A stretch of 62,645 bases of DNA, the filler included, from Babesia bigemina (Eukaryota): assembly GCF_000981445.1 (NCBI RefSeq). It is 10 parts of 10 records of this genome, joined end to end, with 100 filler letters (N's around TTAATTAATTAA, not from the genome) between each part and the next. Parts side by side here need not be neighbours in the genome. Positions count along the whole stretch, not along the records: positions 4,335 to 25,620 come from NW_012237267.1; 9 more parts are not named here. One strand, 5' to 3'. Below, piece after piece: positions 21,001 to 24,000 of this stretch. The position numbers are program-made. Each line of letters starts with the position of its first letter. The first letter of the stretch is position 1.

Positions 21001-24000
21001 TGTCCCTCTTCTACCTCCTTTGCGTCATGGTCGGCAGACTGGATGTGCTCCACATACGCTCACACCTGAGATCACCGTCATCGCACAGGATTACAGCGCA
21101 ATCGCTGTTGGCGGCAGCGCAAGTCGGAAGGCTTGCCAAGATATCGTATCTACAACCGTAATTGTAATCACCTTTGTAATTCACACAACTCACGTAACAT
21201 CTCACGTAACTACTCACCTACTCACCTAAATACCAAACGTAGTCTAATGTCTCGAAGTACTCTAGCGGCAGCCTGTGAACTATGTAGCAACTAGATTAGG
21301 TGATGAGTAAACGACAATGCAAAGTGCTAAGCTAGCATCCAGGCTAAGTGCTAACCTAGCAACCAGGCAAAGTGCTAAGCTAGCAACCAGGCTAAGTGCT
21401 AAGCTAGCACACAAGGTAAGTGCTAAGCTAGCACCCAGGCAAAGTGCTAGGCTAGCAGCCAGGCAAAGTGCTAGGCTAGCAGCCAGGCAAAGTGCTAACC
21501 TAGCACCCAGGCAAAGTGCTAACCTAGCACCCAGGCAAAGTGCTGAGCTGGCGGATGAACCGTATTTTGGTGGGTGTCGTAGCACGTTGATTTATTGTTG
21601 CGTTGAGTTACGCGTTGACTGTGAGAGGCGTCCGCGTCGCCCATTGAGTGAGTGTCACGTGAGGCTGGGTGATTGGTTGCTACGTAGCGGTCGTGAGGGC
21701 CGCGGCGGGTGACCTAAGTCGTGTGTTGCGAGTCACCGGCAGGGTGGCGTAATCGGCGTTGGCCCGGTTAAGTAGCGTTTATAGGCGGCAATGTAGCGAT
21801 CGTTAATATCACATTTAGGCACGTAGCCGGCACACTGCGCCAGTATGGCGCCGATACCGCGGCTCGTAGCACGGTGCTGCTGCACTGTGGGAGTTGAGCG
21901 CACGGGGTTCGCTGCAATTTCTATGGCGTTGCAAATAGTGAATAATTTGAAGTGGCTGTTGGTGCTGATGACATGCGTCGCGTCAGGCGCAGCCGTGGTA
22001 TCCTGGGCAGCGTGGGTGTCGGAGCCAGGGCTGGGGGGATACAGCGGTGACGGTGCGTGTTGATGAGGTGACTGGGAGCGGCAGTGGTAGTGTTGCAGTT
22101 GGTGAGTGCGTTGCTAAGTGATTGATATGTCTGCAGGGTGAGGGGACTGGGAGCGGCAGTGGTAGTGTTGCAGTTGGTGAGTTCGTTGCTAGGTGATTGA
22201 TATGTCTGCAGGTTGAGGGGACTGGGAGCGGCAGTGTACGTGTTGCAGTTGGTGAGTGCTGCTTGAGTGATTGATATGTCTGCAGGTTGAGGGGACTGGG
22301 AGCGGCAGTGGTACGTGTTGCAGTTGGTGAGTGCTGCTTGAGTGATTGATATGTCTGCAGGCTGAGGGGACTGGGAGCGGCAGTGGTAGTGTTGCAGTTG
22401 GTGAGTGCTGCTTAGGTGATTGATATGTTTGCAGGTTGAGGGGACTGGGAGCGGCAGTGGTAGTGTTGCAGTTGGTGAGTGCGTTGCTGGGTGATTGATA
22501 TGTTCGCAGGTTGAGGGGAGTGGGAGCGGCAGTGGTAGTGTTGCAGTAGGTGCGTGCTGCTTGAGTGATTGATATGTCTGCAGGTTGAGGGGACTGGGAG
22601 CGGCAGTGGTACGTGTTGCAGTTGGTGAGTGCTTGCTAGCTGATTGATATGTTTGCAGGTTGAGGGGAGTGGAGCGGCAGTGGTACGTGTTGCAGTTGGT
22701 GAGTGCTTGCGCAGGTGATTGATATGTTCGCAGGCTGAGGGGAGTGGGAGCGGCAGTGGTACGTGTTGCAGTTGGTGAGTGCTTGCTAGGTGATTGATAT
22801 GTTTGCAGGCTGAGGGGACTGGAGCGGCAGTGGTGCGTGTTGCAGTTGGTGAGTGCGTTGCTAGGCGATTTATATGTTTGCAGGTTGAGGGGAGTGGGCG
22901 CGGCAGTGGTACGTGTTGCAGTTGGTGAGTGCTGCTTGAGTGATTGATATGTCTGCAGGCTGAGGGAAGATGTCGGGAATAACGATTAGGTCAGGTGCTC
23001 CGTGTTCGGAGTGTGATTATAGTTGTATAACTTATCAAACGTGTAACTGCTGTCGCTGGTGTTGTAAAGTATGTAAGACTCAATCATGCCGTGTATGTTT
23101 GATTTGGTATTTCTACAGGGACTCGGGTCCAAAGGAATGTCATCCTAAGGGATGTCGTTCCAAAAAAAAAGAATGCACTGAACCCACTTGTCCATGTAAC
23201 TGTTGCATACAGAAATGTCAAGAGCAGCCTGAAACCTGCAGTCCCCCCGCTCCACGCCCTCTCTCTGATTCCTCCGATGCTCAGCCTCACGCCGGCGGTC
23301 AAGATCATGCATCCCGTACCGAAGCTCTCATTGATGAAAACGAATCTCATTCTGCCTCCACACCTTCCCCCCCTCCCTACTCCGTCATCGCCGCCGTCAT
23401 CGTTGCCATCATCCTGCTCGACCTGTGCATCTTCCGCTTCCCGGTGGGCCGCAACATCCGCGATTTCCTCGTACGCAAGATACCCTTCTGCATCGCGTTT
23501 TACAGCTAATCTTGACAATTTGGTGGTGCAAATTTCTTAATCAAAATCCCACTGATCACCTAACTGGCAACTGACATCTAATGTTCTAGACAGAGTAATG
23601 ATTGCGTTGATGATCAATCACATGAGCAGTGAGGTGACCTACCACCTGACTTAGTAACTGACCAAGACACTGACCTAAGTGCTGACCAAGACACTGACCT
23701 AAGTGCTGACCAAGGTGCTGACCAAAGTGTTGACCAAGGTGCTGACCAATGCCATGACCAAAGTGGTGACCAAGCACCTGACCAAGTTGATGGTCACAGC
23801 AGCGATGACATGGTCACAGCAGCGATGACATGGTCACGGCAGCAATGACATGGTCACGGCAGCGATGTCTTGGTCACGGCAGCGATGACATGCTTACGGC
23901 AGCGATGTCTTGGTCACGGCAGCGATGACATGCTTACGGCAGCGATGACATGGTCACGGCAGCGATGACATGGTCACGGCAGCGATGACATGGTTACGGC

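What the first reader, a model, noticed from the sequence alone, without database searches (positions are those of the whole stretch)
22061..22969. A minisatellite built from introns: 12 tandem micro-exon/intron units in a 5' leader
Seen: each ~75-bp unit is a ~40-nt G-rich exon plus a ~35-nt GTGAGT...TGATTGAT..TGCAG intron. The size and signals match the introns of the housekeeping genes in this window. Units diverge internally but keep GT and CAG. Exon lengths of about 39-41 nt do not preserve frame, and the last acceptor sits 11 nt before the ATG. Inference: a heavily spliced 5' UTR whose intron number changes by repeat expansion, a direct route to intron gain.
Basis: partly seen in the sequence, partly recalled or inferred. 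Interest (0 to 1): 0.85.

Follow-up and report, generated by a model that had tools for sequence, protein, structure and literature searches.

The report
Intron-like minisatellite in Babesia gene leaders
A 75-base repeat sits in 12 copies just before a small membrane-protein gene of a cattle blood parasite (Babesia bigemina by protein likeness); each copy holds a segment shaped like this parasite's short introns, so the array is likely a heavily spliced non-coding leader whose intron number would change as the repeat grows or shrinks, but splicing has not been shown.

Summary
The array is real: 12 units at 22064-22966, each 40-41 nt plus a 34-35 nt GT(G)..GCAG segment, ending 11 nt before the ATG of a 179-aa Cys-rich protein with a C-terminal hydrophobic segment. 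All 36 homologues found are B. bigemina. A paralogue in the window has 6 units, and 18 of 36 reference gene models carry translated array sequence, so the array is a family-wide leader element. It is not coding. The segments match homology-supported introns of the window in length (10 of 13 are 34-40 nt) and score, lie on the sense strand only, and keep their splice positions; the only B. bovis-type initiator lies upstream. Against: 10% of shuffled units score as well, all three CAGs of the unit are invariant, rival donors exist, and the one public run holding the repeat gave only unspliced contigs (RNA or DNA unknown). Verdict: spliced leader about 50%; unspliced or promoter minisatellite about 33%. 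Intron change by tandem repeats is known in humans and potato; a 6-12-intron, copy-variable leader in an apicomplexan antigen-linked family was not found in print.

The parts
22064..22966 (+). 75-bp minisatellite, 12 units
   Evidence: TRF; unit alignment
22102..22136 (+). first of 12 intron-like segments (others start at 22177, 22252, 22327, 22401, 22475, 22550, 22625, 22699, 22775, 22849)
22925..22958 (+). last intron-like segment (34 nt); acceptor 11 nt before the ATG
22959..22969 (+). 11-nt spacer before the ATG, holding an in-frame TGA
22970..23509 (+). 179-aa Cys-rich protein with an almost invariant C-terminal hydrophobic segment; B. bigemina multigene family with no name in the records seen
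   Evidence: no Pfam family
21552..22060 (+). upstream block closely similar in both paralogous cassettes; putative promoter and first leader exon; initiator-like TCACATT with its A at 21811
   Evidence: alignment; motif scan; motif from PMC4148916 passages
15480..21161 (+). large single-ORF ves1-like gene (stop to stop) upstream in the same cassette; the label is inferred and Pfam gave no VESA1 match
12407..12868 (+). paralogous array of 6 units
12881..13417 (+). paralogous 178-aa gene, 29 nt after its last acceptor

Best explanation
The array is a 75-bp minisatellite just upstream of a Babesia multigene-family gene, and is likely the gene's non-coding 5' leader, with each unit predicted to lose a 34-35 nt spliceosomal intron and leave a ~40-nt micro-exon. 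Shown: the array, its non-coding status, its presence before both paralogues here (12 and 6 units) and before at least half of the reference homologues. Inferred: transcription starts at or after the initiator-like site at 21811; each short segment is excised on its own, as short introns are in this genus; slippage or unequal exchange copies whole exon-intron units, so leader intron number varies between loci (units are about as alike between arrays as within them). Each segment carries an ATG opening a 4-codon uORF, so full splicing would remove 12 upstream starts and shorten a 1,159-nt leader to 746 nt.
For: Length: 34-35 nt against 10 of 13 homology-supported introns at 34-40 nt. Splice-site score 12.8-15.3 against 2.1-15.6 (leave-one-out) for those 13; such scores occur at 0-0.4 per kb on the sense strand of five intronless coding stretches, never on the array's minus strand, and on the plus strand of none of 6 other repeat regions tested. 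In 18 units, 7 of 7 signal columns are invariant against 31 of 68 others (Fisher p=0.006; shape-matched control 0.024). Donor variants stay donor-like (GTGCGT, GTAAGT, GTGGGT). The only TYAYWWW initiator in each intergenic region lies upstream of the array, at the same place (21811, 12153). All ATGs of the array except one in unit 1 lie inside the segments. 18 of 36 reference models begin with array-derived peptides in mixed frames.
Against: 10% of shuffled units score as high. All three CAGs in the unit and 4 of 10 GT..G sites are invariant, so the constraint may be a DNA motif, not splicing. Faster change of the segment interior is not significant (p=0.10). Run X1 gave 24 contigs on the last two units, no joint, and the 8 shown all include segment bases; whether X1's signal is RNA or DNA is open. 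A 746-nt spliced leader is far above the 152-nt B. bovis median (PMC4148916) and would still hold ATGs at 21845, 21923, 21968, 21973 and in unit 1. The splice model rests on 13 introns only. The region is full of other minisatellites (12-, 20-, 22-, 24-mers).
Confidence: 0.5

Rival explanations
1. An ordinary promoter or intergenic minisatellite, one of several in the cassette, that is not transcribed or not spliced; the G/T-rich unit looks like an intron by chance and its constant blocks are protein-binding motifs or recent homogenisation.
For: Four other satellite types lie in the same cassette. Chance of an equal score is 10% for one ancestral unit. Invariant GGCAGT and GTGTTGCAGT blocks lie in the 'exon' and all three CAGs are kept. 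Only unspliced contigs in X1. Typical leaders are about 150 nt (PMC4148916).
Against: No initiator-like site in or after the array (but only 801 of 2,023 B. bovis start regions have one). Signals are on the sense strand only and absent from the plus strand of the other repeats. Signal columns are more constant than a shape-matched control (0.024).
Confidence: 0.33
2. The array is transcribed and spliced, but not as 12 uniform introns: upstream donors (GTTGGT, GTACGT) are used, units are skipped in blocks or as one long intron, or many segments are retained.
For: Both rival donor types occur in real introns of the window and score 10.6 and 14.9 in the unit. The peptides of the reference ab initio models imply mixed donors. 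Retained forms would fit the X1 contigs if these are RNA.
Against: GTACGT is lost in 7 of 18 units, while GT..G of GTGAGT is kept in all. The longest of the 13 introns is 243 nt, far below 860 nt.
Confidence: 0.13
3. The spacers are coding exons that extend the protein's N-terminus, as some reference gene models have it.
For: 18 of 36 reference models include such peptides.
Against: Spacers of 40-41 nt break frame; the ATG in unit 1 is followed by a stop after 2 codons here; an in-frame TGA precedes the ATG in both paralogues; the models mix frames and come from ab initio predictors (PMC4066756 methods passage).
Confidence: 0.03

Closest known systems
Minisatellite-driven intron modifications in human paralogues (De Grassi and Ciccarelli 2009, PMC2812944; Results read)
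   Same: Variable tandem repeats at exon-intron boundaries change gene structure among recent paralogues; 27 intron modifications, 8 in UTRs.
   Different: Those are RNA-supported and average about 4 units of 30 bp. The sections read do not describe a unit that is one whole micro-exon plus one whole minimal intron repeated 6-12 times.
[quoted passage not shown]
   Same: Tandem duplication yields extra introns; the potato case inherits signals from a parental intron-exon boundary.
   Different: The classic model makes one intron from a duplicated exonic AGGT. Here each unit would carry both sites ready-made, in non-coding sequence, many times over.
B. bovis ves1-beta genes with up to 11 introns (PMC4066756, passage)
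   Same: Intron number varies among paralogues of a Babesia variant-antigen locus.
   Different: The passage gives no repeat origin and no leader location; the gene here is not VESA1.
Introners (PMC3443670, passage)
   Same: Many near-identical introns in one genome.
   Different: Introners are dispersed elements; this unit occurs only in two tandem arrays in the window and brings its exon along.
BbigVes2 and B. bovis SmORF (PMC4066756, section 22)
   Same: Short multicopy genes beside ves1.
   Different: Ves2 is described as secreted, without membrane attachment and homologous to the 5' end of ves1b. This family has an almost invariant C-terminal hydrophobic segment.

Membership tests
Short spliceosomal (U2-type) introns of Babesia | GT...AG ends with +5 G and YAG | tested here: met
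   12 of 12 here and 6 of 6 in the paralogue
Short spliceosomal (U2-type) introns of Babesia | Length in the organism's modal range | tested here: met
   34-35 nt against 34-40 nt for 10 of 13 homology-supported introns
Short spliceosomal (U2-type) introns of Babesia | Branch-point motif | tested here: inconclusive
   The invariant A at about -12 resembles TRAY, but only 4 of 13 real introns have TRAY at -11 to -13
Short spliceosomal (U2-type) introns of Babesia | Lies inside a transcript and is excised | tested here: inconclusive
   X1: 24 contigs, no joint, RNA status a guess; three other runs gave no reads
[quoted passage not shown] | Both splice sites come from a duplicated exonic AGGT and the coding sequence is unchanged | tested here: not met
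   Donor and acceptor are separate sites inside each unit; the GT after the acceptor varies (GCT, GGT, TGT)
Introners | Dispersed copies inserted at unrelated sites | tested here: not met
   Within the window the unit occurs only in two tandem arrays; no whole genome was available
BbigVes2 | No membrane anchor | tested here: not met
   Almost invariant C-terminal hydrophobic segment in 14 of 14 aligned proteins, judged from the sequence, no predictor run
BbigVes2 | Homology to the 5' 500 bp of ves1b and a signal peptide | not tested
   No direct comparison or signal-peptide predictor was run

The most novel reading that the evidence does not exclude
A parasite gene family beside its variant-antigen genes carries a copy-variable array of complete exon-intron units in the 5' leader. 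Every retained intron adds a 4-codon uORF, so protein is made only from fully spliced mRNA, and repeat expansion or contraction sets both intron number and the strength of a splicing-dependent brake on each paralogue.
Probability: 0.2. Interest if true: 0.85.

Novelty: new variant of a known kind. Interest (0 to 1): 0.5.

Why it matters
If spliced, intron number at these loci would be a length polymorphism that can be scored between paralogues and strains, so gain and loss of introns could be watched within a species and the cost of each extra leader intron measured. It would also correct about half of the reference gene models of a B. bigemina family that sits next to ves1-like genes and has no name in the records seen, and point to a post-transcriptional control at loci tied to antigenic variation. 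If unspliced, it is one more minisatellite in a repeat-rich cassette that misleads gene predictors.

Tried and rejected
No whole genome is held, so family-wide DNA could not be aligned. A 27-letter junction pattern found nothing in metagenome, prokaryote-genome or viral contigs. The run search listed no holder on record as RNA; one of 24 rows (X1, share 0.05) holds part of the stretch. X8, X11 and X22 gave no reads, which is no test. No DNA-versus-RNA control for X1 was obtained. X1 depth is about 98 over the last spacer and about 31 in the middle of segment 11, which I do not interpret, and short junction contigs with both sides under about 31 nt may not have been laid. Expression tables: 0 of 17 family identifiers (of 28 with locus tags) are in the 3,721-gene RNA-seq table of PMC9806345 (positive control found; 4 more gave nothing without a control), but 5 of 6 ves1-sized control genes are missing too, so this says nothing. 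0 of 24 are in the ~456-protein list of PMC4066756, and 0 of 6 in the supplements of PMC9531838. The 354-codon stop-free frame on the minus strand is compositional: 7 stop triplets and no ATG on that strand of the array. A 72/68-codon ORF at 21845/12187 differs between paralogues mostly by amino-acid changes and a late frameshift (read by eye) and is not in the protein collection; not treated as a gene. No RNA structure beyond shuffles (z 0.70, 0.53, -0.05). The Atlas gave only hits under 0.9. The CHL1 alignment to the B. bigemina model was poor in its 3' half and was not used there; 7 of the 8 CHL1 introns come from the B. bovis protein and one has two possible placements. The ves promoter paper PMC3294438 is not held. 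Three look-ups of earlier findings returned nothing.

Full report
Setting. The window is a string of unplaced contigs separated by N spacers. The finding lies on a contig spanning 4335-25620 with two copies of one cassette: 12-, 20- and 22-mer satellites, a 5.3-5.7 kb single-ORF gene, a 24-mer satellite, a conserved ~500-bp block, the 75-bp array and a small gene. The best homologues of two housekeeping genes (98-99% identity) and all 36 homologues of the small protein are Babesia bigemina. I call the large gene ves1-like from its size, its C-terminus and my own knowledge; Pfam gave no VESA1 match. No whole genome was available.

Observation. The array is 22064-22966, 12.1 copies of 75 bp. It divides into twelve 34-35 nt segments from GTGAGT (once GTGCGT) to GCAG, and 40-41 nt spacers; the last segment ends 11 nt before ATG 22970. 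A second array of 6 units lies at 12407-12868 before the paralogous gene at 12881. Units are 89% alike within the first array, 82% within the second and 86% between them, and several have their best match in the other array, which points to exchange between loci. The unit occurs nowhere else in the window. Copy numbers come from one assembly and could be off.

The gene behind it. The 179-aa protein has a variable Cys-rich N-terminal half, a Pro/Ser linker and an almost invariant C-terminal 40 residues with a hydrophobic stretch. A profile search of 1.84 billion representatives found 23 proteins: 19 already known as B. bigemina and 4 more that proved to be B. bigemina too. Full-length homologues start at the same Met, and an in-frame TGA lies just upstream in both paralogues. 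Joined in silico, the spacers hold only the ATG of unit 1, which opens 2 codons here and an out-of-gene 54-codon frame in the paralogue. The array is therefore non-coding. Of the 36 reference homologues, 18 begin with peptides translated from the repeat in mixed frames. This shows that the array precedes at least half of the family and that ab initio predictors (PMC4066756, methods passage) treat parts of it as introns; it is not evidence of splicing.

Do the segments look like introns? Spliced alignment of homologous proteins gave 13 introns in two housekeeping genes: 10 are 34-40 nt, 12 have G at +5 and 12 end in CAG. One of them ends GATGTTCGCAG, much like the array's segments. With matrices built from these 13, the array segments score 12.8-15.3 and the real introns 2.1-15.6 when left out in turn. 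Scores of 12.8 or more occur at 0-0.4 per kb on the sense strand of five intronless coding stretches, not on the array's minus strand, and not on the plus strand of six other repeat regions. But the composition of the unit favours such matches: 10% of 3,000 shuffles reach the score. Rival donors exist 4 nt and 16 nt upstream; the second is lost in 7 of 18 units.

Are the signals constrained? Over 18 units, the seven signal columns are all invariant against 31 of 68 other columns (p=0.006); a control that slides the same shapes along the unit gives 0.024. The interior of the segment changes faster than the spacer (0.85 against 0.56 variants per site) but not significantly (p=0.10). All three CAGs of the unit are invariant, two of them in the spacer, so a DNA-binding motif or chance could give the same picture. 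Units are related, so these p-values are rough.

Is it inside the transcript? B. bovis start sites often carry TYAYWWW (801 of 2,023) and leaders have a median of 152 nt (PMC4148916, passages). In both cassettes the only such motif between the 24-mer satellite and the ATG lies upstream of the array, in a block identical between the two (21811 and 12153). A start there gives a 1,159-nt leader, 746 nt after removal of the 12 segments. That is long, and upstream ATGs remain unless further introns remove them; two more intron-like stretches just before the array (21958-21992 and about 22012-22044) keep GT and YAG in both paralogues by eye, but candidates of that strength are common. Each segment holds an ATG that opens a 4-codon uORF: 12 of 12 here and 6 of 6 in the paralogue.

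RNA. The run search listed no holder on record as RNA; one run, X1, held 5% of the words. On the last two units plus the gene, X1 gave 24 contigs, all on the repeat, with no joint; the 8 shown all include segment bases, one spans spacer-segment-spacer unbroken and one runs from the last segment into the ATG of another paralogue. This is the unspliced form. X1's RNA status is a guess, the coding region had no cover, and no control for DNA was obtained, so the result weighs only lightly against splicing. Published tables were uninformative.

Mechanism and odds. Most likely (0.5) a spliced, non-coding leader made of repeated exon-intron units; next (0.33) an unspliced or promoter minisatellite; then (0.13) splicing at other sites or in blocks; coding use is all but excluded (0.03).

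Known and new. Tandem repeats that alter intron structure among paralogues are documented in humans, UTRs included (PMC2812944, Results read), and intron gain by tandem duplication is an accepted route (PMC3443670, passages; PMC4974935, abstract). PMC4066756 (passages, section 20, part 1 of section 22, supplement 3) describes ves1a, ves1b and ves2 and mentions further species-specific genes with a C-terminal transmembrane domain, but in what I read names neither this family nor its upstream repeat. Searches listed no paper on this array; the library lacks most subscription papers, the ves promoter paper was not held, and one supplementary file of PMC4066756 was not searched. I rate it a new variant of a known kind, unproven, with interest 0.5.

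Noticed in passing
window 39245-42210 (+) and 32821-33430 (-): An ORF with a reverse-transcriptase domain (RVT_1, E 1e-30) follows a ves1-like ORF on one contig without a spacer, and a second contig end looks by eye like the C-terminal part of a non-LTR element. Retroelements are not expected in piroplasms (recalled); contamination or a chimeric contig is possible.
   Followed up: no
window 353-1089, 3456-3930, 4335-5010, 14686-15296, 24353-25620, 55929-56258: A 22-mer satellite (C-rich, up to 58 copies) lies directly before the ves1-like genes, usually preceded by 20-mer and 12-mer satellites; a 24-mer satellite follows them. None scores as intron-like.
   Followed up: partly
window 13540-13945: Two short remnants after the paralogous small gene: the tail of a related membrane-protein subfamily (as in P0052-P0054) and a fragment resembling a ves1 C-terminus, suggesting 3'-end shuffling between these families.
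   Followed up: partly
window 21845-22063 and 12187-12393: A 72/68-codon ORF with a hydrophobic stretch starts 34 nt after the initiator-like site in both cassettes; the changes between the two look neutral.
   Followed up: partly
window 26371-31237: Chromosome end: 174 copies of a 22-mer, a 60-mer repeat, then telomeric TTTAGGG/TTTTAGGG.
   Followed up: no
window 51686-55828 and 59937-62645: A GC-rich tandem repeat of about 660 bp with internal 166-bp duplications, directly after a CHL1-like helicase gene.
   Followed up: no
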